Assembly (NCBI GenBank): GCA_032718475.1
Contig: JAUCBJ010001749.1
Location: forward strand, 1-40,267
Source of the DNA: Nemertoderma westbladi
Taxonomy: Eukaryota > Animalia > Xenacoelomorpha
Direction of reading: 5' to 3'
DNA: 40,267 bases
The notes below the pieces were generated by a model. That model did not search any database. It had not been told where the DNA came from and worked only from the letters and a program-made list of their open reading frames with translations. Made by a program: the position numbers and the translations under genes. Below, piece after piece: positions 2,868 to 36,927 of this stretch (its first letter is position 1; each line of letters begins with the position of its first letter).

Positions 2868-3479
2868 TGCCTTTTGACATTAGGCAAGTACCATAGTGAC
2901 AAGTACCACACTAGCGGAGTGACATTAAACAGGAATGTGCCTGGATAAGAACGTGCCTGTAATACTGTATAAGCTATAAGGTTCAGGAATAACTGCTGCT
3001 CGACTGGTAAAATTCTGTATTAACGGATAGGCCTACACCTTTTCAAATGATTGTACACAGTAGCTAAAGAATGAAAGCGAAAATATAATTTTATGTCTCA
3101 CCCAGTAAGGGGGGAGGTGGAGGGTGAAACTATCTGCATTTCATACCATATCTCATTTTAAGATTTATATAAAAATTAGGGTTTTGGGGACGTACAGTAC
3201 CTGCATTAATACACTATTCAAGGACATATACACGTATACCCTACTGTCGTGTTTCAGTTTCAAAACGATGTTTGTTCCAGTATTATGATTATCCCGCTGA
3301 ATCTCTTAGATTATGACTTTGGGTTCGTGTTACAAGGAAGTTTTAATTATGGTTGAGGACTGACCCCATCTAACCCCAACCAAAATAATAAACCGAATAC
3401 CTCACAAAGCCATTTAAAGCACTGAAGTACGTTAGGCAGCCAAATGAGGTAGTCAGGTTACAGTGTAAATATCAGCACA

Positions 3480-4470
3480 GCAGTATCAGTAATATCAGTA
3501 TGTAATACCGGTCTGCCGGTACACTGTACAGCAGAATGGATGGAGGCAAAGATTCCTGAAGCCGCATTGTACTGCTTTAACTTACTTTCAGTTTAATGCT
3601 ACCGGTCTGCCGGTACCGTATTTTAACAAAGTCAAGGTCACATCACATTCAACCATTCCAGCATTTGTCTGTCTGTCTATTGCAATTACAGAATTCTTAC
3701 AATCTGACAATTACCTACTGTATTACCGGTACCGGCATACCGGCTGACCGGTACTAAATTCACAATTACCTGAATACCAGAATGTCAAAATTTGTGCTGC
3801 AGTGCTGATAGTCAGATAGTTCGCAGTACCATTTGCTGTCCACTCCACAGCAGCACAGACTTCTCTCAGTAGTCAGTGCTGCTGCTGCAGTGGATCTATA
3901 CTGATCTACCAGCCTACCTGCCTACTGCCAGACTGCTGTCAGGCTGTAGTCTCAGTAAGCTGGATGCTGGAGGCTGATGCCTGCATGCAGGCATGGCAGC
4001 ATGGGTGTTGTCAGGTTGTTGTTGTTGATTGCAGCCTTGCAGGTTTCAACCCATAGACTGATAAATGTACTGTAGTTTATGTCTACTAGTCTACTAGTAT
4101 GTTATGCTGTTATGTATGTCACATACTGACATAGCTGCATAGGCCTACATGTTCTGTTCCTGTTCTGTTCACCCACATACAGCTGTACAGTATGTCAGTA
4201 TGTGGGTAAACAGAACCTGAGAACAGGTAAAGATAGGCCCTAATCCATATGTAATCAGATAATACTGGCAGACCGGTACAAACATGTATCCTGCCTGCTA
4301 TCGGTAGACCGCACCGGTACCGGTCAGCCGGTATCTACGGCTGTACGGCATACCAGCATACTACAGTACTACTGTACTGGCGTACGGTATCAGATCAGAA
4401 TCTAATAGGCCTACAGTTACAGTCTGACAGTACCGGTACCATGGTTCCGGTAATACTAACTGACTAATTC
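3480..4470. other. Dense cluster of putative transposon excision footprints
   Basis: At least 19 exact 5-mer/CAG or CTG/same 5-mer motifs in about 1 kb, plus TA-CAG-TA, TA-CTG-TA, TA-CCGG-TA and TA-GGCC-TA. Confidence 0.8.
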
Positions 4471-4493
4471 TGTCATTATGCATTAATACAGTA

Positions 4494-4745
4494 CGGAGTT
4501 ATAGTTCATATCCGTACCGACCTGAAAATCCCGCCTCTGTGAGCTGTGACCTGCTCCTTTCCCTGATTTCTGGATTTGGTAAAGTGACCGTTTATTGTTT
4601 TGGTTAGAAAAGCCCACCACTGTAACCTGCTCCTTTCTGCCTTTCCGTTAATTAAGTAATGGAGATTAGTTTATTGTTTTGGTTAGAAAACACCACCACT
4701 GTAACACCATCGGTCAGGTCGGTACGCATATGAACGATAACCCAG
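4494..4745. mobile_element. MITE with about 32-bp TIRs and TA TSD
   Basis: CGGAGTTATAGTTCATATCCGTACCGACCTGA (4494-4525) is inverted at 4714-4745. TA flanks both sides. It ends 61 bp before the HOPX-like ATG. Confidence 0.85.
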
Positions 4746-4806
4746 TACGGTAATCTTGTAATAGAATACCGGTAGCCTAAACTAAATTTCAAATATTTGA
4801 ATTGTC

Positions 4807-5922
4807 ATGGCGGTAAACTATTTGCAACCTCGTGTATACGGCCCAACGAGACATACCTTACACGGGAGCATCGCCGCTCCCACCGTCTCTAAGTCCCAGA
4901 CAAATCGATCTCAAACAGTTTCGGTTCCTCTCACCGACACAACGAAATCCGTATCCGTGAGACCGAGCGTGAGAACTCTGAAACAAACTCGAGGTCGCAT
5001 CCAACCCGGTAAACCAACATACCCCCGAATCACAGAATCAACCGGATTCGACACAAACAGAAACCGACTTTCCTCCAAGTCACTTTCCTGTCCGAGATTG
5101 CGAACTCAAAGTGTCGAAAGCATCGGGAGTCATCGGAGCTTCGCCTCCACCGCGTCCAACCCGCAACGAATACAAACAACATATTTCAGCGTCTTCAATC
5201 GGAAAGACTCTCCTAGTTTCGGCAACGTGGACCAACTCCCCTCCAAGAATCCGTACCCGCGGTACCAGTTGGCCTCCGAAGACGACGACGACTTCCTAAC
5301 GCCGCCGAGTCGCTCGCCGGAGTTCCACTCGTCGCAGGGCTCGCTCAGCAACCTCGCGGGGCTGGAGAGCCCCCCCGCAGCCCGGTTGCGCGTGCCGGAC
5401 CTGCTGGATCGCAGCGCCGACAGCTGCGATCGGCTGCGGTCCCGTTCAGTTACCCCCAATAGTAAGCGGTACCCGCGGTTCTACCAGGGAACCTCGCAGC
5501 ACCGGGAGCGAACACCGGAGTCTCTGAGTTACAGACCAACCAACCTGGAGTCCACCCCGGATGCGCGTTCTAGAACACATGCGAATATAGCCAGATCAAC
5601 GCCGAGTTCTAGAACATTTACGTTAGAGACACCGCCGAGTTCTAGAATGTACGATGTCGCCGTTTCGCCGACACCAACCACCGATACAACTACGCACTCG
5701 GCTGCTGGAGGCGTATCGATGCGGTACCCGCCATGGAATTCAGAAGCGTTCTACCGGAACAGAATCCATCGTATCGTAGCGAAACCTTCCACGGCTGAGA
5801 TGGAACTAAGTTCCCATCAACTCAGTGTTCTAGAATCCGCCTATAAGCTGAATAAATGCCCAGATACTGACGAACTATCAATTCTGTCCGAGAAAGCAAA
5901 CATGTCTACTTCTCTGGTTAAA
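4807..5922 (+). CDS. HOPX: HOPX-family homeobox gene, coding exon 1 (372 aa: long S/T/P/R-rich region plus homeodomain helices 1-2)
   Basis: The ORF ends in LSSHQLSVLESAYKLNKCPDTDELSILSEKANMSTSLVK, followed by the donor GTGAGT (5923-5928). The intron is phase 0, at the usual PRD-class position in helix 3. Confidence 0.8.
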
Positions 5923-6597: not shown

Positions 6598-6684
6598 ACG
6601 TGGTACGAGAATAAATTATCCGAATGGCGTCGCAGAGAAGGTCTCCCAGCCCGGGGCTCTTCTGTGTTCGATCGCTTCCGGTGA
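6598..6684 (+). CDS. HOPX: HOPX-family homeobox gene, coding exon 2
   Basis: After the acceptor TTTTTAG (6591-6597) it reads TWYENKLSEWRRREGLPARGSSVFDRFR*. This matches the diagnostic HOPX C-terminus (human KWFKQRLAKWRRSEGLPSECRSVTD, from memory). Confidence 0.88.
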   Translation, partial: TWYENKLSEWRRREGLPARGSSVFDRFR

Positions 6685-6943: not shown

Positions 6944-8258
6944 CTCACGAAGTAGCCTATATAGTAGCGTTCTATTGCTTTGGCCGCCTTTAGTTGTGGG
7001 GTATTGGACGGACGGGGTCGGTTTTTATTTTATTTTTTTCAGACAACTATAATTCAAGTGCTCATTACATTCCGTAATTTTTTAGTTAAATTTTATTTAT
7101 ATTTGGAATAAGAATTGTGTTTATTTAACAACAATACGACCGCTAATCAAAGTAAAATAATATTATTGATAATATTTCTTTATAGTAATTAAAAATTTTT
7201 TAGTAAGTAATCTTTAGTTCCATTTAACAAAATAGATGGAGGGGGGGGGGGGGGGGGGGTCCCTTTAAAAACAGTTTTTATTACTAGAAATAGATAAATA
7301 ATCAAGATTATATATCATCATAATACGAATTTAGGGATGATCTGTTAGTACACTAGTGTCCCTTAACGGGATCCCGGTGAAAAATCCAATCCCGATCCCG
7401 ATCCCGACTTTTTTTTGGAACGGGATTCCGAAGTATAAATAGTGAAGTAAATATCTTAATATCCGATGAATAGTTGCTAGTTAGTTGAACCAGAAGAGAA
7501 TGTCAGTAAAACATCCAGAAATCAACTATAATTAAATTGTAATATAACTTTATCTTACTAATAGTTCAGAAGTGTAGACGGCCTCAGTACACCAACCGAG
7601 TATTTACGCTGGCAGGGAATGTATATTTTCTTATTATTCTAATAAATACGAATTAAGTCGTTAACGTATTGGTGAGTTAACGAGTTGGGGAGCGTAATTT
7701 AAAATGCATATCATTTTATAAACATTTTTTTTCATTGCCTCGTCATTTTAAATGTTCTGTTGGCTTATTTACGCCTTTAATATAAATCGCCGTTTCATTA
7801 GTAATACAAACCTTTAATTTATCGTTTTGATTATAAATAATAATTGAACTGATTTCCCTGCAAACTGAATTCATCGCAGTGCATTTAATAAAATGATATA
7901 CAATAATTAATTACCAACAAATATCATTACCAAATGCCACTTATGTAACACTTTGGTTTGTATCATTTAGTTTATATTTATTATAGTAATTTATTTGGTA
8001 GATGGTTTATAGCCAACAATAATTTAATGGGTGCTTATCTCAATTTGTATTAAATAATTACTTAAATTAGCTTTGTGTGTTACAGTTCTTTGTAGTCCGC
8101 CTAGCAGCCGGGATTATTGGGCAAAAAAGTGTTAGTGATGTGATGTTATAATTATTTAAACACGATAATGCTATAAAAGAATTCTCAATTAATTGGAAAA
8201 AATTCGCAGATTATAGTTTGATTTTCGTCGCCTCCGTAATAAATAAATAAATATGCGT

Positions 8259-9530
8259 ATTCATATATGGGTTGACGCTTGACGACTTGTCTACTCGAGC
8301 AACCGATACATATATGGGTTGACGCTTGACGACTTGTCTACTCGAGCAACCGATTCATATATGGGTTGACGCTTGACGACTTGTCTACTCGAGCAACCGA
8401 TACATATATGGGTTGACGCTTGACGACTTGTCTACTCGAGCAACCGATTCATATATGGGTTGACGCTTGACGACTTGTCTACTCGAGCAACCGATACATA
8501 TATGGGTTGACGCTTGACGACTTGTCTACTCGAACAACCGATACATATATGGGTTGACGCTTGACGACTTGTCTACTCGAGCAACCGATACATAAAATAT
8601 GGGTTGACGCTTGACGACTTGTTTACTCGAGCAACCGATACATATATGGGTTGACGCTTGACGACTTGTCTACTCGAGTAACCGATACATATATGGGTTG
8701 ACGCTTGACGACTTGTCTACTCGAGCAACCGATACATATATGGGTTGACGCTTGACGACTTGTCTACTCGAGCAACCGATACATATATGGGTTGACGCTT
8801 GACGACTTGTCTACTCGAGCAACCGATACATATAAGGGTTGACGCTTGACGACTTGTCTACTCGAGCAACCGATACATATATGGGTTGACGCTTGACGAC
8901 TTGTTTACTCGAGCAACCGATACATATATGGGTTGACGCTTGACGACTTGTCTACTCGAGCAACCGATTCATATATGGGTTGACGCTTGACGACTTGTCT
9001 ACTCGAGCAACCGATACATATATGGGTTGACGCTTGACGACTTGTTTACTCGAGCAACCGATACATATATGGGTTGACGCTTGACGACTTGTCTACTCGA
9101 GCAACCGATACATATATGGGTTGACGCTTGACTACTTGTCTACTCGAGCAACCGATACATATATGGGTTGACGCTTGACTACTTGTCTACTCGAACAACC
9201 TATACATATATGGGTTGACGCTTGACTACTTGTCTACTCGAGCAACCGATACATATATGGGTTGACGCTTGACGACTTGTCTACTCGAGCAACCGATACA
9301 TATAAGGGTTGACGCTTGACGACTTGTCTACTCGAGCAACCGATACATATATGGGTTGACGCTTGACGACTTGTCTACTCGAGCAACCGATACATATAAG
9401 GGTTGACGCTTGACGACTTGTCTACTCGAGCAACCGATACATATATGGGTTGACGCTTGACGACTTGTCTACTCGAGCTTCCGATACATATATGGGTTGA
9501 CGCTTGACGACTTGTCTACTCGAGCAACCG
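8259..9530. repeat. 47-bp minisatellite, 27 near-identical copies
   Basis: Unit ATACATATATGGGTTGACGCTTGACGACTTGTCTACTCGAGCAACCG. Span 1272 bp = 27x47 plus one 3-bp insertion. Confidence 0.97.
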
Positions 9531-10681
9531 CCCCTTTATTGCAAGGTAAATTACCCTATTTATTTACATACTATTTACTAAACATTGTCTACTTATTACT
9601 TTCATAAAAGTGCATCGTAAAGCGTATTTTTAATTCAAAAGTTTGATTAGTTTCTTTAAATAATCCCCGGCTATTTCCGCAAATGTGCGAAAAATACAGA
9701 TTTTATTTTCCACATTTACCGAAAAAAACCTTCCATCCTATCATATCGATCAACCTTCCAAAAATAAGGATAAAAAGTGCTCTCTAACCAGTTTGGTTAT
9801 TTAGATCAGTAAGTACTTCGGTAATAATTTATTCGGCATCGACAAAAATGTGGTTTTTATATTTCCTTGAAAATATGCGGAATACGAAGTCGGACAAAAA
9901 ATATGAGTTTATTTTTGTAAAATAAATATTTAGTATTTTGTGTTTAATAAACCGACCCACTCTATAACATTCCTCGGGACTGTATTGCTGCGAGGTTATT
10001 GGTTGTTTACTGTGGCTAATTATTGCGTAACTATGTACAGCTGTGTAAATTATTAATATTGCTATTGGTCCTTTAGTATCATTTAACCTAGATGTATGAT
10101 GTTCCATTATTATAATAAATAATATGGTTGTGATATAAAGACCTATACCAAATAAAATATATTCAAAATTAAATACTATCCTTACCAAACTTAATATACT
10201 CGCAGATTTAGGTAGTGGCGCTCCAAAACCCAAATTAAAACTATCACTTTTTGGACTTCCACGGTATTACCATTGACCCGCCTCTGAGGTCCACATACAC
10301 CAGACCTAGGGTTAGGGTTATATGTCAGTTATATTGATGTTGGAAGTACTAAATTTTGTATGCCAAACATTTGTATTGTTCTGTTATACTTATAATTATA
10401 ATGATATTTGCTCTATATATTCTTTCTTTATGAAACCAAACCAAACGATGCTTAATGCAATTAATAGTGCTTGTGCTAGTTTATGATTCGATTGTTAGAA
10501 CTCTGTATTTCATTATTGCTTACTGCATTTCTAGTAGTTATCTTGGGAACTAGAACATTCGCTAGGTGTATACTCATTACTCGTACTATATACTTTAAAT
10601 TTCCTACATTTGTTTTTTTAGTGGAATTGAAAAATGGCCAACGTGCATACAATTTTACAAAGGATGAAAATTGAATCCAAT

Positions 10682-11372: not shown

Positions 11373-13467
11373 CTGTTTTTTAAAATTACCACAGTGGATT
11401 TCTCTGATGTGGATTTAGGGAGGGGGCGAGGGTCTTATGTAGAAGCCTTGTTGAATAGTGATAGCCCCGGTAGCCATTGTTATATGGGACCATTAATATG
11501 GGAATTTTTTGTAGGGCAAGCGATTCTGAAATTGACCCCACTTTTGCACTTCATCGTAGCAATTTTCATGCTATTGTAAAATTGTATGCATGTTGGCAGT
11601 TTTTAAAGCATGACAGACTATTTGGTTTGAACGACTGTATTTATGCGTTCGTACTGGTACTCATGGTTAGTAATAATTAGTATAATCGCCTGTAATTATA
11701 ATTACTCATTGTTTCAATTATGATATTTAGGACTGATAAGGTTATTTATATATATGAAAATCTGACAATTATATTTTGTAATATAATTATTTTGTTTTCA
11801 AGTTGGTGTGAAATACGCCATGAAATCAAGGGAATTTAATTCAATGATGGTCTATGGAGTGCTATATACCACGACATGAAATAAAGTAACAGTATTATTT
11901 CAGTATGATGAATAAAACCGGCTCCTTTCCCTGAATTAGTAATTAAAACAAATTTTAATTTTAGAAAAATGAAATTAAATGATTCATTATTCGTAATATT
12001 ATTTTCAATCGAAAATTGAGACGATGCGCAGACATTGCGGGAGACGTTGCGGTGTTTTACAATATTTAAAGTGAGTCTCTATCTATGGCTTTTCATTCGT
12101 GATGAAAGTCGGTGATGATTTATTGACGGCTTATTGCGGTAAGGAACTATATGGAACACCGTTGACGCCAAAGTTTACCACTACTCACGTCTACGAACTT
12201 AATGAGACAAAATTTATGATTCATTAACTCGGTGAGACAAAGTTGGTGAGACAAAGTTAGAGTAGTTAGGTGAAATTTATGTATCTAATAAGTTTGTCGC
12301 ATTAATTTGGTATGCCAGTCCATTACGCCTAGATACGCCCGTTTTGGATTACAAAGTTAGTTCCGTGCTCAGGTCTCCGGGGTAAACATCATACAGTAGT
12401 AGTAAAAGGGGGGTGGCGGATCTTTAGGGTGATAAAAAGAAGCAGTTCTTGCCAATATTTCAACCCAAACATGTATTAAAATACAAATAACAGGCCTTCA
12501 ACAGGGCATAGCTCGTACATACAACTACTATAACTGAAGACCACTAAACACTAGGCCTACATACTATCGATTTGATGTGTGTAGACAGTAGACACAAAAC
12601 ATGAGTAGAGTTCGTAGTTTTTTCGTCTAGATTTTTCACAAAATGAGTAGGCCAGCTCAACTCTGTATAATGTTGATTTTTTGATAAGTGCCGAAAAGTG
12701 ATTTAGTCTACTCGAATTTTTGAAGTTGTCTAAAACACACAAAATTTTTAAATCGCAATATGCCACAGACAAATGGATCCCCCCCCCCCCCCTCCCCACG
12801 TTTGTACAAATCTTATAATATTACATGAAATGAATAGCTAGTTTGACCTCTCACCTCCTTGCTGAGTTGGTTAGTCAGATATTTTATTTTCGCTTTCAAT
12901 CTGTTACTTGTGTAATAGAAATAGATTGAAACCAGTTACGCCGCAGTTATTACTGTATTACACCTTTTTATAGTGGCTCGTTAGTCAGGCCATGGAAGAA
13001 TTCCAAACATATGAGTAAAATCGGAATTTCTTTGCGAAAATATAAATTCAGGTTAATTAACACGGTAAATTATTTATTGATGGCCGATCTTTAAGGTTCT
13101 GATACCCCGAGATGAGTTCCCTGATGTCTACAACTCTGAATTAATAAGGGCAGAGGAATTCTGGTATCCTAAAGTTGAGAAGTATGTACGAAAATATTGC
13201 AAAAGACAATACACTTTTATTTTTTGTCTAAGATTGGGTTTAAATTATCTCTTCATTTTTACTTTTTTCTGCATCAAGTACACTTATAAAGGTGCAGTGT
13301 TACCAGCTTGACTTCTTTGATCCCCCCCCCCCCCCCCCCCCCCTGGTATTAATTGCACACTAGGTATGCCATATAAAAGGGCCTGCGATTGGACGAAACT
13401 TAGATAGACGAGGGGGAGGGGGGGGGGGGGGGGTTACACCCCCCCCCCCCCCCCCCTCCCCGCAGTA

Positions 13468-13764
13468 GGTAAGCAGCAAACTTTGCCCGCGTCCAATCTT
13501 CGCCCGGAGCAATCTTCGCCCTCCAAATGAGCAACAATCGCCCGGCGAAAACCTTCGCCCGTAGACAATCTTCGCCCGCGCGCAACCTTAGCCCAATAAA
13601 CAATTATTGTTTTGGTTAGAAAAAGCCGTCTCTGTAACCTGCTACTTTCCCTCAATTTGTAACTAAAATGGTTACTAACACAAATCTTAATGGGCGAAGA
13701 TTGCCTTGCGGGCGTAGATTGGACGCGGGCGAAGATTGAACGCGGGCGAGGATTGCACCCAACC
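13468..13764. mobile_element. MITE with GG...CC ends and 8(-9)-bp TSD, Mutator-like architecture
   Basis: About 39-bp imperfect TIRs with repeated AATCTTCGCCC motifs. CCGCAGTA is duplicated at 13460-13467 and 13765-13772. Confidence 0.85.
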
Positions 13765-13996: not shown

Positions 13997-14587
13997 CTAT
14001 GTTTGATGTTTTCTGATCTGTGAGTCCAGCAGTTTACCCCAAATGAAACTAAAAGGATGGCAAAACTTTGTAGGTTGGCCTGCTTGGTCTACCATGGGAC
14101 GCCCCTCATTGGCCCACTTAAAGAGACTCCCTTCCAGGTTATACAAACTCACTCCATCCATCACCAACATTCCAGATTTCTGTAGTTTCTCGATAATATT
14201 TGAGGATCTATAACCCACCGAACAATAAGCAACTACTAAACACTTTCGGCTTAAACTTCCATCAGTAGGAGGTACTTGACAATGAAATATTCTATCAACT
14301 TCGTTCACAATACTTTCTAGATCGGGGTTATAAGGGTCAATATTCATTGCACCTTTTATGTGACTGATAAAGAACTCATCCTTGTGTCGGGTATCGAGTA
14401 TTACGAGGGATTCGGGGTCGTTATCAGAGTTGGTTAACATCTCGTTCAGAGTTTCAGTTTGTAGTTGATTTACCGAGGGAAACTTTGTTCGAATCCCGGT
14501 TAGAGTGATCCGCATTCCAACGGGAACATTGTTCATCGGTTGGGACTCACCCGAACGACTGGCTTGCGGGTCGGGGGTCGAATCCAT
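13997..14587 (-). CDS. Single-domain rhodanese-like (sulfurtransferase) protein, 196 aa, intronless
   Basis: VILDTR..EF..SHIKGA, active-site loop YCSVGYRS, YNLEGSLFKWANEGRP and C-terminal HPFSFIWGKLL. Confidence 0.9.
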   Translation of the reverse strand: MDSTPDPQASRSGESQPMNNVPVGMRITLTGIRTKFPSVNQLQTETLNEMLTNSDNDPESLVILDTRHKDEFFISHIKGAMNIDPYNPDLESIVNEVDRIFHCQVPPTDGSLSRKCLVVAYCSVGYRSSNIIEKLQKSGMLVMDGVSLYNLEGSLFKWANEGRPMVDQAGQPTKFCHPFSFIWGKLLDSQIRKHQT

Positions 14588-16027
14588 TTATTGCCGTTTT
14601 GGATATGTTTTTTTAGTAGAAACTACCAGCAAACCGGTTGCCGGTTCGGCCTACGGTACATTACATCATAAGCTAAGCTCAGAAGCTGTAGGACTAGTAC
14701 GATGAAAGTACAGCTGTATGCAGGCAGTCTGGTATGTTTAAGTGATTTACGCTACAGCCAGACAGCACTACCTGATACAGATTGAGACCAAAGGCCTACT
14801 ACCAGACTACGTACTACAGTGGAACGGAGAATACAGATTACTGATAATTATATTGCTAGTCCTACTTCTTACTTCTGGGGTAAACGATGAATCTTACAGC
14901 AGTACAGTACGTACGATAGGCCATGTTTACATTCGACTGGTATTTGTGTCCATTATCTAAGTTTACTTATCTTTGGTAATGGTAACTGGCCTGAGGATAT
15001 TTGCGGGTTTAGTTTGTTGGTTTGGTCATGGATGATAGGTCTACTACTGATTTCGCTCATTAGTAGGCTACAGTACTACAGTACTTTATATCGCTACACC
15101 TACACCATTTCTGGAGCTGGAATATAGTGTCGTTATTCTGGAAGCATATGACCCCTCTGTGACGGGATCCTGGTTCTGGGATCCCGATACAGTTCGACTT
15201 GGTAATGTGTTTCCTACTCGCTGCGGCTGACTTCTTGGCTGAAGGACTGACTGGCCGTAGGCCTGGGAAAAAGCTAGAGTTAATCTGAGTGTCGATTTTA
15301 TTAATATAATTAATAGTCTCGATAGTACAGTTTACTGTGCTATTGAGATTGACAAATAGATTTGAGGATTAAATTACATTTTTTTTTTTATTTTTTACTA
15401 GCTAATAAAAATTACTAGCTAACACAAAATCAAAATTACTAGCTACGATATTTTTGTCCGATGGCCAAATATTTGTTCTAGAACAAAAAACGTCATAAAA
15501 AAAGAAAAAGTTGGTAAATTTTTTTATTTTAATTTTTCAATAATGATTTTTTCCACGTACTTACGGAGCCCGGGAAGGGACATGAGAAAAATATTTTTCT
15601 AACACGAGCCCTCGTGTTACTAACACGAGCCCTCGTGTTACTAACACGAGCCCTCGTATTACTAACTCGAGCCCTCGTGTTACTAACACGAGCCCTCGTG
15701 TTAGATAACACGAGCCCTCGTATTACTAACTCGAGCCCTCGTGTTACTAACACGAGCCCTCGTGTTAGCTAACACGAGCCCTCATGGTAGCTCCAACGAC
15801 CATTTACATTAATATTATTACAAATTTGGAGTTGTTTCATTGGTTGTAGTAACATAGGAGAACTAAATTGGAGGGAAATTCAAATTGTATCTCAGTGGTT
15901 CTTACGTTTCTGTTCTGTTCCTGTATGTTTCGTGTATGACAACAGTTCGAAGTTTGCCACTTAATTGAATTCGCAGTAATTCAACTTAGCAACGCGAACT
16001 ATTGCATGCCCAGCACATTTTGACATT

Positions 16028-17240
16028 ATGTGGCCCGATGAGTTAATGCCGCTTCTCAACATTTATTTTGACCTTAGCATGCCTTATAAAGATATTTCGT
16101 CTGTACTCGCCAATGATCATGGGATAAACATTGGTGAGCGACAACTAAAACGTTTATTTAGAGATTTCGGATTACAACGTCGAAATTATACACCATTGGA
16201 AGAAGTTGTAGAATTTATTAAAAATCAATTGGCTGGATCGGGAAGCATGCTGGGTTATAGAATGATGTTTGAAAAGTGTCGCCGCAACGGCTTAGTTGTG
16301 AAAAAGGAGGACGTACGAATAATTCTCAAGGAACTTGATCCACGAGGAGTCGAGCTTAGACAATCGCACCGACTTAAACGACGTTCATACTATGCCAGAG
16401 GTCCAAATTACCTCTGGCATTTGGACGGCTATGATAAACTAAAACCGTTCGGTCTATGTATAGTATAAGCGGTTGCATAGATGGGTTTTCACGGAAGATT
16501 TTGTTCTTAGAAGTTTATAAAACCAATAACAACCCAAAAATTATTGGTGGCTATTTTGTTGATTTAGTAGCTCGCCTTGGTGGGTGCCCTTTAATGGTCA
16601 GGGCAGACTACGGAACTGAAAACACCTACGTGAGAAGCTTTCAGATGTTTTTTCGCCGCAATTGCACTGATGGCTTGGTAACCCGGGCGTATACAGACGG
16701 GCGCAGTACGTCAATCAAAGAATCGAGAGTTGGTGGGGGGTTCTTCGGAAGGAGAACGCGCAGTTCTGGATAGAATTATTTAAAGAATTGCAGGCAGAAG
16801 GTATCCTCCCCGGAGACGTTGTTTCAAAGGCTGTTGTTCAGTTCTGTTTTACTTCACTAATTCAAAACGAACTAGACACATTAGCATCAGTTTGGAACCA
16901 CCATCTTATTCGTCCTTCAAGAAATCCCAACGTTCCAAGCGGTCGACCTAATATTATGTATTGTTCGCCTAGCCTCTACCATGCTACCGAACTAGCTACC
17001 GAACAGCTCGTAACCGTAGCGCCTTCTGAAATTAATACCTGCTGCTCCAACGAATTATTCCGCTCATATATTCCTTGTGATGCCGATGTATATGAACTGT
17101 GCATTCAGTTAATACGTGAGAAGAACCTCCGACGTCCTCTATCCGTAGACGACGCCGTGGAACTTTATCTCATCCTTCACAATGCAATTCGCGAACTTCT
17201 TGGAAACAACGTAAACGATATGTATACTGAGTCAGATTAA
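16028..17240 (+). pseudogene. IS3/IS481-type DDE integrase-transposase with two frameshifts
   Basis: HTH region, then WHLDGYDKLKPFG, CIDGFSRK, RADYGTEN and (after a 1-bp loss near 16712) NQRIESWW, then WNHHLIRPS. A 5-bp insertion near 16461 splits C-I-S-G-C. Confidence 0.9.
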
Positions 17241-17588
17241 CTAATTATTATAGTTGAGTATGATGTAGGTGTGTTTTTATGATATACTGTACTAAAATTA
17301 TTGTCTGTATAGCGAGAATTAATGATAAATTTTGATAATCGATATAATTTATTTATATCAATAATCAACCATCAATCACCCCCCCCCCCCCGCCCGTCGT
17401 TCCTTTATTTGTTATCGGAGATATCTATTATAAATTAAAATAATAAAATAATTACTGACCGTTTGCATTTGAATAATAAAAGTATGTTTAGTATATTTTC
17501 CTTTAATAATAATTATTAATAAAGATATGTTTAATTTAATAATAATTATTATTAATCCTAATACAATTTTTCAAACACTTTCTTAAAG

Positions 17589-17648
17589 GGAAGCAGGACA
17601 ATTCGGTCCAATTAATTTTGTGTTTTGGGACCGAATTGTCCTACATCC
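17589..17648. mobile_element. 60-bp mini-MITE with 9-bp TSD
   Basis: GGAAGCAGGACAATTCGGTCC / GGACCGAATTGTCCTACATCC. Flanks are TTCTTAAAG and TTCTCAAAG. Confidence 0.75.
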
Positions 17649-17848
17649 TTCTCAAAGATAATAATTCATCATAGCGGGCAATGTTTATAATTTATTAATT
17701 AATTAATAATTTACATACCAACAAGGTCCTGGAGATAATCCCTCCAATAGGTTAGCATTCGACGCTCGCGTCGCCGCCGAATTGAACCTTGCTCTGACCA
17801 CTGCACTTCAAATAGCTGTTCAACAATAGTGGCGTCAAGTTCACACTT

Positions 17849-18133
17849 TTACAAGTTTGGTTCTTTGTTAAGTTAATAATGTATTACAATAGTAATTCTC
17901 CTTTCTAGATTCAATGAAGGATTAAAGACTCTGGGAGTTCTAAATAATATACAAGATAATAGAGATATCTTTAAGGAAGTTTTCGTTTATAAAAAACGAA
18001 AACTTCCTTAAAGATATCTCTATTATCTTGTATATTATTTAGAACTCCCAGAGTCTTTAATCCTTCATTGAATCTAGAAAGGAGAATTACTATTGTAATA
18101 CATTATTAACTTAACAAAGAACCAAACTTGTAA
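17849..18133. repeat. Perfect 140-bp-arm palindrome with 5-nt loop, containing a HECT/G2E3-like exon fragment
   Basis: Arms 17849-17988 and 17994-18133. After TTTCTAG the sequence reads FNEGLKTLGVLNNIQDNRDIFKEVF. Confidence 0.9.
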
Positions 18134-20105
18134 TTGCCTTTCGTCGTCATAGTAACGATCATTAATTGTTGATAATTATAGTTAATAAAATAATTAATTA
18201 ATTAAATAAATATTGTAAATTCAACAACTTTAATAAAACATGGATCAATAGAAAGGAGTGAAGGAAATTAAGAAAGTGAAAGAGATTGATTAAGTTACAT
18301 AAATTTTAGATAATTGTAATTATTCAGCAATTAAGTTTCACAACTAATCGTTATAATTAATGGCAGTTTTTAAATATAGGAAAATTACTGCTCTAGTGGC
18401 CGGCGAATGCGATCGAAGCAAATAAACTTCATAAAGACTGGAGACAAGTGTATCTCTATGGGTGACAAGTGTATCTCTATTTAGTAGTACTGTAATACTG
18501 TATAACTTCTGGGCTTATCTTGTCGGTTACCATCCCAGGAATGAACTCGCCCAAGCTTCGTTCTCTCATGAATGTTTCAAGTTCGTTATTTATATTCACA
18601 CTTAGTCAGTATACCTGCAGCCGTTAAGAGAAACGCGAAATATATAATAGGCCTACTGTATACTGAACAGTAACGTAAGAACCACTGATATACAATTTTA
18701 ATTTCCCTCCAATTTAGTTCTCCTATGTTTTTACTACAACCAATCAAACAACTCCAAATTTGTAATATTAACGTAAATGGTCGTGTTAGCTAACACGAGG
18801 GCTCGTGTTACTAACACGATGGCTCGTGTTAGCTAACACGATGGCTCGTGTTAGCTAACACGATGGCTCGTGTTATAACACGAGGGCATGTGTTAGTAAC
18901 ACGAGGGCTCGTGTTATGTAGTAACACGAGCCCTCGTATTAGCTAACACGAGCCCTCGTGTTAGTAACACGAGCCCTCGTGTTAGCTAACACGACCATTT
19001 ACGTTTGTTAATATTGGGGAAATTAAAATTGTAAATAAAGTAAAAAAAATTTTTTTGAACTCTCGCATTATCGTTATTTTTCAACACTCGATATTTTTAC
19101 TCGCGTTATTTTTACTCTCGATATTTTTCATGTCTCGATATTTTTCAATATAACCCACCTACAGGGAGTGCCAAAGTGACAATTAGTATATAAGCCAATA
19201 GCGGGCAGGGGAGCACATGGGGAAAGATAGGAAAGCATCCATTGGGTAGCAAAAGTACAGTAGAGGTGAAACCAATATCTATGTGTATCAATCATATAGT
19301 TATCCCGATTACTGATTTACCGGTCAGTTCATTAATCACAGAGTTGCAGACCGGTTATAGTTTTAACCATCACTTCATCACTCTATACACTGCTGTTGTA
19401 ATTCTGTATTGCAATTTCAATCATATACTGTTATACATTCTGTGCTATTATCATTGGAACATTAACATTGAGAAACACAAACTCTGTTATTTTCCCGACG
19501 GCCTTCGGCCAAAGATATAAGTTCAGCAGCCCAGCAGAAAGTGACGCGTATAACCAAACCCGGTCGGGATCCTTGAACTCGATCCCGTCACATAGTATTG
19601 GTGAGATTTCAGGACAGAGGGATTTCAGGATTTGTTGTGATTGTGATTTCTGGATTTGTCCGTTTATTGTTTTGTTATACTGTACTGTTATATGATGTGA
19701 TTTGTTTGGTTTTGGTGTTATTTGTTCTGATTTGGCTGTGTGGTGTGATTTGTTCTGATTTGGGTTTTTAGACCGATCCTTTACTGTACTGCTGTACTGT
19801 TTTTAGTCCTACCGCCTTTCTGCCTTTTACAATTTGGTTTTACCATTTACCTTGGTTTTAGCAGTTTCAGAGTTTAGCATTTACTGTAGTTATGGGGCGC
19901 CATTCTGGTCAATTGCACATGCCATTCTCGCTGCGAGATGTCATTCTCGCAGCGAGATGTCATTCTCGCAGCGAGATGTCATTCTCGCAGCGAGATGTCA
20001 TTCTGTCTGCGAGATGCCTTTCTCACTGCGAGATGTCCCATTTTCTGTTTATTTTTATTTTACTGAATCCAGTATCTCAATCTGTACTTTACTTGTAACA
20101 CTGAA

Positions 20106-20905
20106 ATGGGTTGGTCAAAAATTGTTGTCGACGAAGATCGCTTACATTTTCGACGACGGTTTAAAATTGATGATATATACTGCTCTGCTATGATATAGCT
20201 ACTGTAGATTGATGAATATTAGTCCGAAGACATTGCGTCGACGCCGAGAAGAGCTAATTGAAGAGGCCAAGGTTATCATCCAAGGTTAATATGGCCAAGG
20301 GAACTAGACAGTAATAATGACATCCACATATTTGCTTTGCATTATATTTATATGCCACGTATACAAAGATCAGATCACTGCAACTACTACTTGAACAATG
20401 AACACGCACTATCTTCAATTAACAATAGATCTCCAAGTCAAATTTAGACCGAATCTATGATTTTAAGGGGAGTTCACCATTTTACAGATTATTTATTAAA
20501 AGATTATAGTTTTTGATCTAAATATTGTACAGCTAACAGTGGCACGTTATTTTAATAACGTCAATAGAACAGGTTTCAGTTTTAATTTTGAGTGTAAATA
20601 GTTATTAACTATATAACTAAATAGTTATTGACTATATAACTAAATAGTTATTGACTATATAACTAAATAGTTTTATTTTTTGGCTAAATTGGTAACCCCC
20701 CCCCCCAGCAATAATTTCCACCTGGATAATGACAATATACATAAATTATATGATAACTTTGAAGTGCGTTACGATGAAGAGGAGGGGGATATTATTGTGG
20801 CTGAGTTTGAAAAGGACTTCAACCCATACAACTACTGTACATAATATTGATCCACTTCAGGACGATGGAAATTTCGTTATTCATCTATACAAACAGTATG
20901 TTTAA
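20106..20905 (+). pseudogene. Integrase N- and C-terminal remnants
   Basis: Removing CTGTA at 20202-20206 restores the HTH-like IARLMNISPKTLRRRREEL. Removing CTGTA at 20835-20839 restores QLHNIDPLQDDGNFVIHLY, which resembles the C-terminal motif of this integrase family. Confidence 0.6.
20595..20672. repeat. 23-bp tandem repeat x3.4
   Basis: TAAATAGTTATT(A/G)ACTATATAAC. Confidence 0.9.
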
Positions 20906-21070
20906 TCACTAATGTAGAGAGAGATGTGGCAACACTGAAAAGAATGGTGAAACTAATTCTGTATAATATATATTCTTTAAACTTCTTATTGTTATACAGT
21001 ATATTGATTATAAGTGTATTTTTTGTAGTATCGTTCTACAACATTCAGTATTACAGTAATTATACTATTA

Positions 21071-21854
21071 CTAGTGACGGGCCTAGCGGACCGATAAGGA
21101 ACCGACTTTTTATTTCAAATAAAAAAGATAACGAGAAATAGTATAGAACTAATTATGTAAAAATACAATCATATTTCATACAATAATTACTAAGAAATTC
21201 GATCTATTATTAGTTGCTTAATTCTAGAACAAAATCAACCTGCAAATCGTGAAGACCTCGTTTTGGTATTTCGAAACCATGTTGCTGGTCCGATGCGCGA
21301 TATCGAGTTTAGTTAATAAATTGTTAACTACATCAATTTATATGTACACAGTAATAAGAAATCCTTATGAATGTAATCAAATACAAATCATTCTAGAAAA
21401 ATTTCCTCAAAAAGTATCAAGTCTTGGCATTGGTGCTTCAAAACTAGGCTAGTCAGATTCAGGATATTGCGTTTAATATAAGAATCGAAAACCCCATCTA
21501 ATTCCTTAAAGGCGTTAATAAAATATTGCAACTTTTTTGAAACATGGACAGTCAGAAAGAGGACATCGAATTAAGTTGAAAGATTAAAACCCCATCGAAT
21601 TTGGACTAAGTGTTCCTGAGTTATAGCTGATCTAAAAAAAATTACCCCCACCCAAGTTTTTTTCAATTTTTTGCGTTTTTTTTTATAGGGAATCAATTGG
21701 CAATACTGGCTATGAAATTTTTTTTTGAAATTTTTGGTCATAAAAAAACATGGGAAAAGTATCTTCTCAACTCTACACACTACTGTATAACTAGTCAAAA
21801 ACCATTCAGGTAGCCAGCATTTCCCAGGAACCTACTGCTATATACTGTAATAGA
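21071..21854 (-). mobile_element. Non-autonomous Helitron-like insertion
   Basis: On the minus strand it starts TC and ends with a GC hairpin (CGGTCC-GCTA-GGCCCG) followed by CTAG and T. No TSD. Confidence 0.5.
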
Positions 21855-21971
21855 CATCTCGCTGCGAGAATGACATCTCGCTGCGAAAATGACATGTGCA
21901 TTTGACCAGAACGGCGCCCCATATTTAGTACTGTAGCTGTGTAGTGCAAGTGCAGTAGTGCCTTGCACCTA

Positions 21972-24088: not shown

Positions 24089-24106
24089 TAGCAGGCCGTA
24101 CTGCCG

Positions 24107-26345: not shown

Positions 26346-26481
26346 GTACTGCCGTAGTATACAGTATAGTAGGCCATGCTTACACTTACACCTTCTGACC
26401 GTACTGCTGTACTGGTACCGCCTACCGGTACCAGGGTACTGCCTTACAGCATTAAGCACTAAGCAGTTCAGTTAAGCCTTC

Positions 26482-31139: not shown

Positions 31140-32264
31140 ACAGGCCTACAGACTGACAGAACAGCTAACATCCAACACAGTCTGACAGTACTGCAGTAAC
31201 AGATGACAGACAGACAGAGTGAGGAGTAACGTAACGGCTAACACTGTTCAGAGTTCAGCTGTTACCTAGTTACTGTAGGGTAGGTGTCAGGTGTAGGCGT
31301 GTAGCAGGTAGGCCTGGCCTACAGCCCAGCTGTGCGTATCTCTGTATCTGTCATTTGTGCACAGCCTACCTGCCTCAGTCAGTCAGTGCCTACGTCTAGG
31401 CCTGGCTAGTGGCTACAGCGTACTGCTGTACGGATACATGACCGTACGTAATCAGGACCGAATATAACATAGTTATTACGTATCGAACGTAACCGCAATT
31501 ATGTTACATTGGATCCTATAACTATGAACTATGTTACATTCGATCTACAAATTACTAAGCTCGAATGTAACATCTGAACATTGCCATTTACAGATTTAAA
31601 GGCTGAAAGGAGCAGGTTACAGAGGCATGTAGCGTGTAGGGCAGTAGGGAACATACCCTTAAATAAGCTCCAAAACTGGGTTCTTATTTAAGGAAAATGG
31701 CTCTTATTTAGCCTTTTTTGGATATTTTTTCGACATAATATGCAAGAACTTGTTTCAGGTAAAAATACGGCATAATTTTATTTCACAATATAAAAGTTGG
31801 GTCTTTCTTGAACATAATGCAAAAAACCAGAAAACATTTCACCGTCCGGTTTTTTTTCTACAAGCGTTTTAAAATTGCATCAAAAATACGACCAGTTCCT
31901 AAATAAGAGGGATTTTTTAAATTTACCTTATTTAAGACATCGAAATTGTACACATAAATACTAAAAGTCCTTAAATAAGAACTTTTTGACATGGGTTTCA
32001 TATTTAGGTATACAATTTCATTCCAAAATCTGCATACTCCTTAAATAAATTAAATATTTCTCATTTCTCAAATATTAAATTAAATAAATTAAATTAAATA
32101 TCCTTATATAATGTCTCTTATAACCTCGTCTCCCAGCCCCGTCCTCCTTCTGCCCTTAACTGCTTATGACAGTTATGTATGACCTAACTGCCTAACCTTT
32201 ACAGGACATTGCAAGATGCCGAGATAAGGGAGCTTCTGAGCTTAATTTGATAGGTGCAAAAATG

Positions 32265-33495
32265 CACAACGAGCAACAATGACCAACAACGAGCAACAAA
32301 TGAACAATGAGTAACAAAACAACGAGCAACAATGAGCAACAACAAGTAACATTGAGCAACAATGAGCAATACTAAAGTACAACAATGAGCAATAATGAGG
32401 AACAACGACTGAACGAGCAACAATGAGCAACAACGAGTAACAATGAGCAACTACAGAACTACGAATACTGCGAGTAACATTGAGCAACAATGAGAAACAA
32501 TGAGCAACAACGAGCAAAAATGAGCAATACTGCAATAATAAAGTACAACAACGAGCAACAATGAGCAACAGCGAGAAACAACGAACAACAATGAGCAATA
32601 ATGAGGAACAACGACTGAACGAGCAACAACGAGCAACAATGAGCAACAACGAGTAACATTGAGAGACAACGAGCAACAATGAGCAATAATAAAGTACAAC
32701 AACGAGCAACAATGAGCAACAACGAGAAACAACGAGCAACAATGAGGAACAACGACTGAACGAGCAATAATAAAGTACAACAATGAGCAACAACGAGTAA
32801 CAATGAGTAATAATGAGCAACAATGAGCAATAATAAAAGTACAACAACGAGCAACAACGAGAAACAACGAGCAACAATGAGGAACAACGACTGAACGAGC
32901 AATAATAAAGTACAACAACGAGCAACAACGAGAAACAACGACCAATAATTAGGACATGAGGAACAACGAGTAACAATGAGCAACAATGACAATGAGTAAC
33001 AACGAGTAACATTGAGCAATAATAAAGTATAACAACGAGTAACATTGAGCAACAACGAGCAACAATGAGAAACACTGAGCAACAATGAACAATAATAAAG
33101 AACAACAACGAGCAACAATGAGCAACAACGAGAAACAACGAGCAATAATGAGCAACAACGACTGAACGAGCAACAACGAGTTATATAGAGCAACAATGAG
33201 CAATAATAAAGTACAACAACGACTGAACGAGCAGCACCGAGTAATATTGAGCAATAATAAAGTACAACAACGAGAAAAAATGAGCAACAATGAGGAACAA
33301 CGATTGAACGAGCAATAATAAAGTACAACAACGAGCAACAATGAGCAACAACGAGCAATAATAGAGTACAACGAGCAACAACGAGCAATAATAAAGTACA
33401 ACTAACGAGCAACAATGAGCACCAACAAGCAACAATGAGCAACAATGAGAAATAATAAAGCACAACGAGCAGCAATGGGCAACAACGAGCAACAA
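32265..33495. repeat. Strand-asymmetric low-complexity satellite, AACAA(C/T)GAGC-type units
   Basis: Degenerate 10-bp units with recurrent AATAATAAAGTAC and GACTGAACGAGC variants. Confidence 0.95.
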
Positions 33496-33516
33496 ACTGC
33501 GTCGAACCGGATTGAA

Positions 33517-33797
33517 TGTGGGGGAGAGTCACGTTCAAGTGAGCGAAACCTTAGCATATGGGTGCTATTAATATTAACGAATTGTCTGTCGTCGTTGTAA
33601 ATTTTTTATCGCTAATAACTCGGTCATTCTTTGATGAAATTAAACGAAACTTGGTATGTATGTAGTCTGTCAAAAGATTATAAATATTAAAATTAAGGAG
33701 ATGAGTATTGTGTTGAACGACCTCTGACTAACGAAAGACAACATGTTAATGGGGTGGGGCCCCTATCAGCTAGGGCTAGCTAAGGCTTTGCTCACTT
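33517..33797 (+). mobile_element. HINE/Helentron-associated element
   Basis: Inverted AAGTGAGCGAAACCTTAGC (33537-33555) / GCTAAGGCTTTGCTCACTT (33779-33797). GTC microsatellite and AAACTTGGTA core. Confidence 0.6.
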
Positions 33798-33913
33798 CAT
33801 GCTGCGTAAAGGTCCCACGAACGTGTCCCACTGCGGCCTGAGCCAGTTGAGCCAAAAACGTCACCCAGTCATCATCTTTAACCTTCTAACGTCTATCAGC
33901 TGCCCGACGGAAC

Positions 33914-34821
33914 CCAGGTTGGAATTCATGCTGCAAAACTCGGACGCGTACCTGCGCGAATGACCGCAAACCAGATGCGCGTTGCGCGTTTGGGTGAGAC
34001 AGGTGCGCGTTCGGGTGTGAGACAGGTGCGCGTTGCGCCTCAGCGCGCAGCTCTGCCTCTGATGCGCACCACAAATTAATTGAAATCACGAAAATACACA
34101 AAAAAATTTCGCTCGCTGCGCTCGCATTAGTTTCTCATTTACAATTCTTCAAACAGTCAAATCACTTCACCATAATACTGTAATACCGGCAACCGGCAGA
34201 CCGGAGCTGAATTTGTCTATTTATTTTAACTACAGTACTCTATTGTTGTATTGTTATTAGGTCTATGCTATGCCGATGTTACGTTAGTAAACAGGTAAAG
34301 TCAGAAAGTAACAATGTATTATAAGTATGACTTAATTATAAGCCAACTGTATGTTTAAGCCTAATTGTTAGGTAGGCCTATACAAAGTATTATTGGCAGA
34401 CTGGTACCTATTTCAATATTCGTTTTTTTGAAATTACCGGTACATGTTTTGTTTGTGATCTAAAATAATATTTTCTGTTATAAAAGCAGTGAGCCCGATG
34501 GGCCACCATAGTAGTGGATTAAAAAAATATTTTTTAATATTAACAATTTTGATGTTGCAAAAATTACATTTATTATGTAAGCCTAGATTCAACGTAGACA
34601 GACAGACGTAACGATAAGCTTAAAACGCTCAAACTTGTAAAATAGGAATGTAAAATTGTTCTTATGAACTGTGCGATTTTTTGAGATATGCATGACATGA
34701 GCTGCGCGATTTTGTTTGGATTATGACATATGATGAGGTGCGCGACGAGCCAATTTCAGGTGCGCGGTGATTTCAAAACAACAAAGCGTACCTGCGCGCT
34801 CATGCATGAATTCCAACCTGG
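33914..34821. mobile_element. hAT-like non-autonomous element with 8-bp TSD
   Basis: 18-bp TIR CCAGGTTGGAATTCATGC. GACGGAAC at 33906-33913 and 34822-34829. GC-rich TGCGCG subterminal motifs. Confidence 0.85.
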
Positions 34822-36447
34822 GACGGAACCATATTTGTGCCTGCCTATTGACATGACATTGACATTGGTTTTTTTTCACACCTTTCAAGTACAACATTGT
34901 GGACAATCCATCTAAGTGGGGCGTAATGCGGAGCAGAAGAGGAAATGCAGGACACAAGTTAGTTTTTCGAAACTGTGCGGCGATGTCCAGTTACTTGAGT
35001 CATGTCTCATCGAAATACGTGACAATGTATGTGCGCTCAGATGGGCGATGGGCTATTCTTTTGAATATCAAAGGGCTATTCTATGCTACCGTGTGAGGTA
35101 AGAATGCCAGTGCTAGCAACTTCATTATGATACGATATTCTACAGAGGATTTATAGAGTGCAGTGCAACCATTGTCCTTATCCTTAACCCAACAATTAGC
35201 AATATTCAGACTGACATAAATCAAAGAATTATGAAAGAAGTGTAACATATACTGTAAGGAATAAGGAATATTTATTTTATTTAAGGAATGTGCAGATTTT
35301 GGAATACAATTGTATTCCTAAATAAGAAACCCAGGTCAAAAAGTTCTTATTTAAGGACTTTTAGTATTTATGTGTACAATTTCGATATCTTAAATAAGGT
35401 TAATTTAAAAAATTCATCTTATTTAGGAACTGGTCGTATTTTTGATGCAATTGTAAAACGCTTGTAGAAAAAAAACAGGACGGTGAAAGGTTTTCTGGTT
35501 TTTTGCATTATGTTCAAGAAAGACCCAACTTTTATATTGTGAAATAAAATTATGCGGTATTTTTACCTGAAACAAGTTCTTGCATATTATTATGTCGAAA
35601 AAATATCCAAAAAAGGCCCAAAAACCCCTAAATAAGAGCCATTTTCCTTAAATAAGAACCCACTTTTGGAGCTTATTTAAGGGTATGTTCCCTACTGTAG
35701 GGGGAACCAAAACAATAAACGAAAGTTTACACATACAGACATATGTTACAAGATTATGCAGGTTACTTTTATTTAAAGGCTGAAAGGAGCAGGTTACAGA
35801 GGCATGCAGCATGTTGGGGGAACCAAAACAATATACTGATATACGAAAGTTAACACATGTTACAAGATGCAAGATTATGCTGTTATGCAGGTTTCTTAAT
35901 TGGGTCTTGGGTCTTTGTTTTGTACTCACCAACACCAAACTGTTCCTTCCTGTAATTATACAGTTATACGAAGCATTTCATTGGTTAACTCCTGAAATCA
36001 AAACACAACTGAAATAAATGCATGTTACATTCGAGCTTAGTAATTTGTAGATCGAATGTAACATAGTTATAGGATCCAATGTAACATAATTGAGGTTACG
36101 TTCGATTCGTAAAAACTATGTTACATTCGATCCTGATTACGTTCGGTCTGTCACCCCTGCTGTACTGCCCTGCAGCCCTCAGTCCCTTCCTGCTGCCTGC
36201 TGTCCTGTCCTGCCTTCTGTCCTGTACTGTGCGTTTCGGACTTTCAAGTTTCAGACAGTCAGAGTTTGTACGGGATGACGGTGGACGGGTCTGCGGGTAG
36301 AAGGGATAAGTTTATCAGTTTATTCTCGAAGCTAATTCAGTAAATTTGCTTTCATTTTTATTTATATGCTAGGCCAGTCTGCCAATCAGCCAATACAGCA
36401 ATAGGCCTACCCCAGCGCCTATGACAGTAGAGTGGAGAGTGCTGGAG

Positions 36448-36927
36448 GGGTCCTACGAATTACCCCAAAATACCCCAAAACACCCCAAAATACCCCAAAA
36501 TACCCCAAAATAGTCAAATATTACCCCAAAATACCCCAAAAAGGCTAAAAAATTACCCCAAAATACCCCAAAATAAGCTAACCATGTTTTTTAACAGCGA
36601 GGGAAAGGAGCAGGTTACAGTGGCAAGTTTTTTTAACCAAAACAATAAACGAGAGTGAAGAAAAAATTTTTAATTATTTTGGGGTAATTCGTCATTATTT
36701 TGGGGTAATTCGTCATTTTGCCATATTTTGGGGTAAATTAAATTTCGAAAACAAAGGGTGAAAAAAAAGTATTTTGGGGTAATTCTAAACTATTTTGGGG
36801 TATTTTGGGGTAATTCTAAACTATTTTGGGGTATTTTGGGGTAGTTTTATACTATTTTGGGGTCTTTTGGGGTGTTTTGGGGTATTTTGGGGTGTTTTGG
36901 GGTATTTTGGGGTAATTCGTAGGACCG
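36448..36927. mobile_element. MITE with TACCCCAAAA arrays and 8(-9)-bp TSD
   Basis: GGTCCTACGAATTACCCCAAAATACCCC inverted at both ends. TGCTGGAG at 36440-36447 and 36928-36935. Confidence 0.9.

What the first reader, a model, noticed from the sequence alone, without database searches (positions are those of the whole stretch)
4530..4705. One internal cassette shared by four MITE families with unrelated ends
GAAAGGAGCAGGTTACAG-N(12-20)-AACCAAAACAATAAAC occurs in the TA-TSD MITE (minus strand, about 4590-4640, with partial extra copies). It also occurs in the 8/9-bp-TSD MITE (about 13603-13652), twice in the split MITE (31605-31641 joined to 35703-35721, and about 35782-35833), and in the TACCCCAAAA MITE (about 36603-36650). 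Pieces recur at about 19660 and 19815. The TIRs and TSD classes differ, so common descent of whole elements is unlikely. Three of the carriers lie within 300 bp of a host gene's coding boundary. Inference: a host-factor binding module (AACAAT is Sox-like, ATAAAC Fox-like) that aids mobilisation or spreads regulatory sites.
Basis: partly seen in the sequence, partly recalled or inferred. Interest (0 to 1): 0.7.

Follow-up and report, generated by a model that had tools for sequence, protein, structure and literature searches.

The report
Two-box core shared by unrelated mini-transposons
A 50-base DNA module of two conserved boxes sits inside four small jumping elements with unrelated ends in an animal genome and is very abundant genome-wide; it likely binds a host protein that helps such elements jump, which is untested.

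Summary
Two boxes (18 and 16 bp), 14 or 21 bp apart, lie in the central loop of four short non-autonomous DNA transposons whose arms are unrelated. One correction: there are two target-duplication classes, not four. Element A has TA; B, C and D have 8-9 bp and look Mutator-like. Public contigs add that the module is roughly thousands to tens of thousands of times deeper than single-copy DNA, far deeper than its carriers' arms. It has hundreds of different flanks and forms tandem arrays. It has no target duplication, hairpin or Rfam match of its own. The boxes are 88-100% alike; the spacer start is 38-50% alike. Carrier D is absent in 4 of 4 runs laid, so it is not a fixed regulatory part of its neighbouring gene. 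Best reading (0.45): a swappable loop module kept because a host protein binds it and aids transposition. Main rival (0.3): a passively carried satellite-like unit. Precedents exist (coral CMITEs, plant E2F-site MITEs), so this is a new variant of a known kind. No binding was tested.

The parts
4489..4750 (.). Element A, 262 bp, TA-flanked, about 37-bp inverted arms starting CAGT/CCGT; pogo-like (Tc1/mariner) MITE
   Evidence: both arms joined to their flanks in runs X1 and X2
4544..4705 (-). About 2.5 tandem copies of the module in A (box 1 at 4544 and 4620, partial at about 4699-4705; box 2 at 4590 and 4669), period 76-79 bp
13468..13764 (.). Element B, 297 bp, 8-bp duplication (9-10 bp also fit), arms built of 17-bp-period subterminal repeats; Mutator-like
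13602..13649 (-). Single module copy in the loop of B, 14-bp spacer
31432..36156 (.). Element C, 665 bp without its insertion, 9-bp duplication, arms with subterminal repeats; Mutator-like
31605..35720 (+). Module copy C1, split in its 21-bp spacer (box 1 at 31605-31622, box 2 at 35705-35720)
31643..35697 (.). 4-kb long-arm element with a 5-bp duplication, inserted into the spacer of C1; holds no module copy
35782..35836 (+). Module copy C2, intact, 21-bp spacer; tandem partner of C1 (period about 116 bp)
36448..36926 (.). Element D, 479 bp, 9-bp duplication shown by an empty site, arms of 10-11-bp repeats; young polymorphic Mutator-like insertion
36603..36650 (+). Single module copy in the loop of D, 14-bp spacer
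11912..11937 (-). Decayed box 1 with the upstream extension seen in other genomic copies; no clear arms
20533..20579 (+). Decayed module remnant followed by the downstream extension common in other genomic copies, next to 23-bp tandem repeats
3378..3461 (+). Possible remnant: box 2 with one mismatch, and the core of box 1 at 3454; weak
19646..19677 (-). Possible remnant: box 2 with two mismatches beside a stretch like A's linker; not significant alone

Best explanation
The cassette is a two-box loop module carried by short non-autonomous DNA transposons of at least two target-duplication classes, and it is likely kept because a host DNA-binding protein recognises the boxes and helps short elements transpose whichever transposase moves them. 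Shown: two conserved boxes, a variable spacer, a place in the loop between unrelated arms, tandem duplication, very high abundance, many different flanks. Inferred: it passes between families by template switching or recombination during repair of excision gaps, and multiplies in place by slippage. Inferred and untested: a host factor bound in the loop bends or opens the DNA and eases pairing of the two ends, which favours carriers and lets the module outlast the arms around it.
For: Boxes are 94-100% (box 1) and 88-100% (box 2) alike among A2, B and D, the spacer 57-64%, and its first 8 bases 38-50%, with length fixed at 14 in 4 of 6 copies. Arms are unrelated, 0 of 24 cross pairs above the shuffled maximum. 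The module is part of multi-copy families in both classes: single contigs join D's arm to the module at about 35 and 64 times single-copy depth, and A's arm to box 1 at about 4 times. Upstream variants are mosaic: A holds both the variant of B and D and the variant of C, which fits exchange between families. Loose ends pile up at the module's borders with about 50% agreement, 373 contigs at 4637 in X1. 4 of 5 inverted-arm structures under 700 bp that I listed carry it; 0 of 9 longer ones carry a full copy (hand-made list). Known parallels: internal MITE regions raise or lower transposition (PMC9921582, abstract); the DNA-bending host protein HMGB1 assists Sleeping Beauty end capture (PMC5224488, passages); inter-element recombination makes new families (PMC3014272, passages).
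Against: No binding or transposition data. The boxes were defined by their conservation, so the box-versus-spacer contrast is partly circular and rests on 6 copies. Spacers of 14 and 21 differ by 7 bp, not a helical turn, and other lengths occur (table 4). Tandem arrays of the module exist, which a passive satellite-like unit explains as well. A's TA duplication is read from its flanks; no empty site is among the 15 of 26 joints shown. The main carrier families are unknown because no genome is held. Remnants at 11921 and 20560 show that copies decay.
Confidence: 0.45

Rival explanations
1. Passive cargo: the module is an abundant satellite-like monomer of about 60-80 bp that new MITE families capture during gap repair and carry with no benefit, as described for Xenopus miDNA4.
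For: Tandem copies in A and C; 'goes back' joints with short linkers at high depth in other loci, one linker equal to A's; abundance far above any carrier seen here; miDNA4 holds a satellite monomer singly or in arrays (review PMC12628747, passages).
Against: Plain copying does not predict two near-invariant boxes around a diverged spacer of kept length. Capture by 4 of 5 short elements is unlikely if the module fills only a small share of the genome (inference from about 150 box-1 copies per Mb).
Confidence: 0.3
2. Host regulatory module: the boxes are transcription-factor sites kept for their effect on nearby genes, and the MITEs spread them.
For: 3 of 4 carriers lie within 300 bp of a coding boundary; rough chance 0.0007, or 0.006 outside the large elements, post hoc. 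A ends 57 bp before a homeobox start and is present in both X1 and X2. E2F sites in plant MITEs are bound in vivo (PMC5950925, passages).
Against: D is absent in 4 of 4 runs laid (3 samples), the empty allele at full single-copy depth in X1, X2 and X3. MITEs and Mutator elements favour gene-proximal DNA anyway (PMC12595863, passages; PMC10401008, abstract). Orientation and side differ: A and D are 5' of a gene, B is 3'. Host benefit cannot keep thousands of copies alike.
Confidence: 0.1
3. The module is a piece of one independent, very abundant element (for example a rolling-circle Helentron-type element) that inserted into or was captured by each MITE.
For: Fairly sharp borders and shared extensions on both sides in many contigs; those extensions find remnants at 11921 and 20560.
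Against: No duplication at shared offsets; no hairpin, z from -1.14 to 0.40 in 6 of 6 folds; extensions agree only about 50% and end raggedly.
Confidence: 0.1
4. RNA-level role: the module supplies a splice acceptor, a polyadenylation signal or small RNAs.
For: Box 1 ends in TTACAG and box 2 holds AATAAA in 4 of 6 carrier copies (sequence; signals recalled).
Against: No Rfam family or tRNA at any copy; no stable fold; internal sites would not remove the element cleanly.
Confidence: 0.05

Closest known systems
CMITE families of Acropora corals (Wang et al. 2010, PMC2872659; parts 1-3 of 4 read)
   Same: Internal region more conserved than the terminal repeats across MITE families; origin unknown; a role in transposition proposed but untested; tandem arrays.
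   Different: All CMITEs are about 100 bp, TTAA-flanked and piggyBac-type, with a 75-bp interior conserved as a block, about 1600 copies. Here carriers are 262-665 bp, span TA and 8-9-bp classes, the module is two boxes around a variable spacer, and the module rather than the whole element is tandemly repeated.
E2F-site-carrying MITEs of Brassicaceae (Henaff et al. 2014; not held; seen through PMC12595863 and PMC5950925 passages)
   Same: One host-type motif amplified inside MITEs of several superfamilies (hAT, PIF/Harbinger, MULE).
   Different: There a 10-bp site of a known factor with binding shown, in plants. Here a 50-bp two-box module in an animal with no factor known.
miDNA4 of Xenopus (seen through review PMC12628747 passages)
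   Same: A MITE whose loop holds a repeat unit singly or in arrays.
   Different: As the review describes it, one Tc1/mariner MITE; here several unrelated families share the unit.
Non-autonomous Mutator-like elements of Aedes aegypti, Muta1 derivatives (PMC5225508, passages)
   Same: 8-9-bp duplications, arms with short subterminal tandem repeats; fits B, C and D.
   Different: Muta interiors are described as heterogeneous; here three families with unrelated arms share one module.

Membership tests
pogo-like (Tc1/mariner) MITE, element A | TA target duplication | tested here: inconclusive
   TA on both sides and no 8-bp duplication at these ends; no empty site among 15 of 26 joints shown
pogo-like (Tc1/mariner) MITE, element A | Short arms starting CAGT | tested here: met
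   left arm starts CAGTA, right arm CCGTA; pogo MITEs with TA and CAGTA ends in PMC3845634 table
pogo-like (Tc1/mariner) MITE, element A | Matching autonomous transposase element | not testable with these tools
   no genome held
Non-autonomous Mutator-like element, B, C, D | 8-10-bp target duplication | tested here: met
   D 9 bp by empty site; C 9 bp and B 8 bp (9-10 also fit) by flanks
Non-autonomous Mutator-like element, B, C, D | Long arms with short subterminal tandem repeats | tested here: met
   D 10-11-bp units, B 17-bp period with a 12-bp core, C 13-19-bp units; compare PMC5225508
Non-autonomous Mutator-like element, B, C, D | Matching MULE transposase element; Merlin and hAT (also 8-9 bp, recalled) excluded | not testable with these tools
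   no genome held
CMITE | Interior more conserved than arms across families | tested here: met
CMITE | TTAA duplication, CC(C/T)T ends, about 100 bp | tested here: not met
CMITE | Sequence likeness to the CMITE internal consensus | not tested
   no alignment was run
Independent small cut-and-paste element (the module itself) | Own inverted ends and target duplication at fixed borders | tested here: not met
   no repeat of 3 or more bases at offsets shared by 3 of 4 copies; two 2-base coincidences only; no fold
Helitron/Helentron-type element (the module itself) | Terminal hairpin (recalled feature) | tested here: not met
   6 of 6 folds no better than shuffles; a larger parent element elsewhere is not excluded
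Known non-coding RNA or tRNA-derived repeat | Rfam or tRNA match | tested here: not met
   0 of 39 weak Rfam rows overlap a module copy; 0 tRNA genes
Fox binding site (motif recalled) | Core ending in A after TAAAC | tested here: not met
   next base is G, T, G, G in 4 of 4 copies
Sox/HMG-box binding site (motif recalled) | AACAAT core, and binding | tested here: inconclusive
   core present in 6 of 6 carrier copies but 53 times in the window outside the 10-mer array; binding not testable

The most novel reading that the evidence does not exclude
A host-protein-bound, superfamily-independent transposition enhancer: a two-box module that many unrelated miniature DNA transposon families of this animal have traded among themselves because it boosts their movement, reaching thousands to tens of thousands of copies.
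Probability: 0.3. Interest if true: 0.75.

Novelty: new variant of a known kind. Interest (0 to 1): 0.5.

Why it matters
MITE interiors are usually treated as filler, and why some families reach huge numbers is open. A short defined module shared by TA-type and 9-bp-type families gives a direct test: mutate two boxes, measure transposition, pull down the binder. If a host factor is involved it would show a shared host dependency across transposon superfamilies and might improve transposon vectors. It also warns that repeat libraries will merge or misclassify families that share the module. If it is passive, it is a clear case of a satellite-like unit dispersed by unrelated carriers.

Tried and rejected
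No whole genome is held, so no census of carrier families was possible. Pattern scans found no related animal copies: 0 hits in viral contigs; 7 hits in metagenome contigs, 0 of 7 like the window's elements by BLAST and context; 1 hit in prokaryote genomes, in unrelated DNA. No RNA holder listed; expression is open. Run X6 of another organism laid nothing, which is no proof of absence. Run X4 has no cover over 4260-4519 apart from one bin; not interpreted. Hairpin, tRNA and Rfam readings rejected. A PDB search with the partial homeodomain found 0 matches. The four box strings occur in 0 papers of the held library; concept searches returned CMITE as the closest animal case of conserved interiors; subscription papers and Repbase/Dfam entries were not searchable, so 'not in print' is not claimed. 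A retracted paper (PMC6268010, listing only) was not used. The homeobox exon join was off by one base and was corrected. Summed contig depth is no copy number and is used only as a wide range. No supplements were read.

Full report
Setting. The window is from an animal with no close relative in the protein collection: the rhodanese at 13997-14587 is best matched by marine invertebrate proteins at about 42%. It is dense in inverted-arm elements. No whole genome is held.

Observation. Box 1 has 6 matches against 0.01 expected and box 2 has 8 against 0.06. They pair into six modules in four carriers: A2 and A3 (A3 keeps only the core of box 1; a further lone box 1 lies at 4544), B, C1, C2 and D. 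The spacer is 14 bp in A2, A3, B and D and 21 bp in C1 and C2. C1 is split by a 4-kb element with a 5-bp duplication. The pieces at 19660 and 19815 are weak.

Carriers. A (4489-4750) is TA-flanked with arms starting CAGTA and CCGTA, like pogo MITEs (PMC3845634, table passage). B (13468-13764), C (31432-36156) and D (36448-36926) have 8-9-bp duplications, G-starting ends and arms of short tandem repeats, as Aedes Mutator-like elements do (PMC5225508, passages). So there are two classes, not four. The arms are unrelated: 4 of 4 within-element pairs exceed all 200 shuffles, 0 of 24 cross pairs exceed the shuffled maximum, smallest p 0.03. No autonomous partner could be sought, so the superfamily names are inferred.

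Evidence from public contigs. Five of 8 listed runs hold the stretch, from 3 studies. Laid on 35600-39700, 4 of 4 runs (3 samples) show a joint that skips 488 bases with 9 letters fitting both sides: the empty site of D, which proves its 9-bp duplication and shows it is a recent polymorphic insertion. A is joined to its flanks on both sides in X1 and X2. Summed depth at the module is about 66,000-82,000 times single-copy depth at A and 17,000-36,000 times at D, against 23-37 times for A's arms and 229-321 times for D's. Summed depth is no copy number; if every place were counted 31 times the module would still stand at about 560-2,700. The window's own density is about 150 box-1 copies per Mb. 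Even with that worst-case correction applied to the module alone, it exceeds A's arms about 70-fold and D's about 4-fold. Single contigs join D's arm or interior to the module at about 35 and 64 times single-copy depth and A's arm to box 1 at about 4 times, so the module is a regular part of both families. Loose ends pile up at its borders (373 contigs at 4637 in X1, agreement 0.51), and joints that go back by 35-62 bases show tandem arrays with short linkers, one equal to A's. Motifs taken from those loose ends found two remnants not noticed before, at 20560 (1 match, 0.00 expected) and 11921 (3 matches, two of them known copies, 0.03 expected). The tables were cut by the tool, so these counts are partial.

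What the module is not. It has no duplication at shared borders, no hairpin (6 of 6 folds, z -1.14 to 0.40), no Rfam or tRNA match. It was not found outside this organism in the collections held, which contain few animals.

Pattern of conservation. Among A2, B and D box 1 is 94-100% alike, box 2 88-100%, the spacer 57-64% and its first 8 bases 38-50%. Upstream of box 1 there are two variants; A holds both, B and D share one, C the other. Of the inverted-arm structures I listed by hand, 4 of 5 under 700 bp carry the module and 0 of 9 longer ones carry a full copy, though one holds the 20560 remnant. The list is not exhaustive and the carriers were picked by the module. Against a strict geometry: spacers of 14 and 21, and other lengths in the contigs.

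Nearness to genes. A, B and D lie 57, 233 and 255 bp from a coding boundary; rough post hoc chance 0.0007-0.006. MITEs and Mutator elements favour such places, and D is missing in every run laid, so host benefit is not needed. The Fox reading fails on the last base in 4 of 4 copies and the Sox core is common in the window (motifs recalled).

Mechanism. Shown: anatomy, sharing, abundance, tandem duplication, D's mobility. Inferred: exchange between families by template switching or recombination (precedent PMC3014272, passages) and in-place slippage. Inferred and untested: a host protein binds the boxes and aids end pairing or accessibility of short elements (parallels: mPing interior, PMC9921582 abstract; HMGB1 in Sleeping Beauty, PMC5224488 passages). 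I give this 0.45, passive satellite-like cargo 0.3, host regulation 0.1, a piece of one independent element 0.1, an RNA role 0.05.

Comparison. It works like the conserved interior of coral CMITEs (PMC2872659, parts 1-3 of 4) but fails CMITE membership on duplication, ends and size. Cross-superfamily sharing of a host motif is known from plant E2F-site MITEs (original paper not held), and a repeat unit in a MITE loop from miDNA4 (review passages). An earlier unchecked note of this scan reports the same architecture with another cassette in another animal; it led me to CMITE and is no independent support. The box strings are in 0 papers of the held library; repeat databases could not be searched.

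Verdict. New variant of a known kind; interest 0.5.

Noticed in passing
window 4807-5922 and 6598-6684 (+): Two-exon homeobox gene (Pfam Homeodomain E 0.0015, below cut-off); the second exon's peptide recalls HOPX by memory; a PDB search with the first-exon part found nothing.
   Followed up: partly
window 13997-14587 (-): Intronless rhodanese-domain gene, only about 42% like its best relatives.
   Followed up: partly
window 15596-19005: Element with 21-bp subterminal repeats and a frameshifted integrase-core (rva_4) frame at 15980-17240; holds a 285-bp near-perfect palindrome at 17849-18133.
   Followed up: partly
window 19891-31139 and 31643-35697: Run of adjacent and nested long-arm elements; three end in CAGT with 5-bp duplications (26482-29350, 29678-31139, 31643-35697). 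Superfamily not determined.
   Followed up: partly
   Followed up: no
window 37181-40267 (+): Long single-exon reading frame of over 1000 residues, no Pfam match at E 0.01, with a Cys/His cluster near its start and 11-residue repeats near the window end.
   Followed up: no
window 8124-9648, 27950-28700, 32245-33600: Tandem arrays of 47, 33 and 10 bp.
   Followed up: no
window 36439-36926: The D insertion is an easily typed presence/absence marker about 250 bp upstream of a gene.
   Followed up: yes
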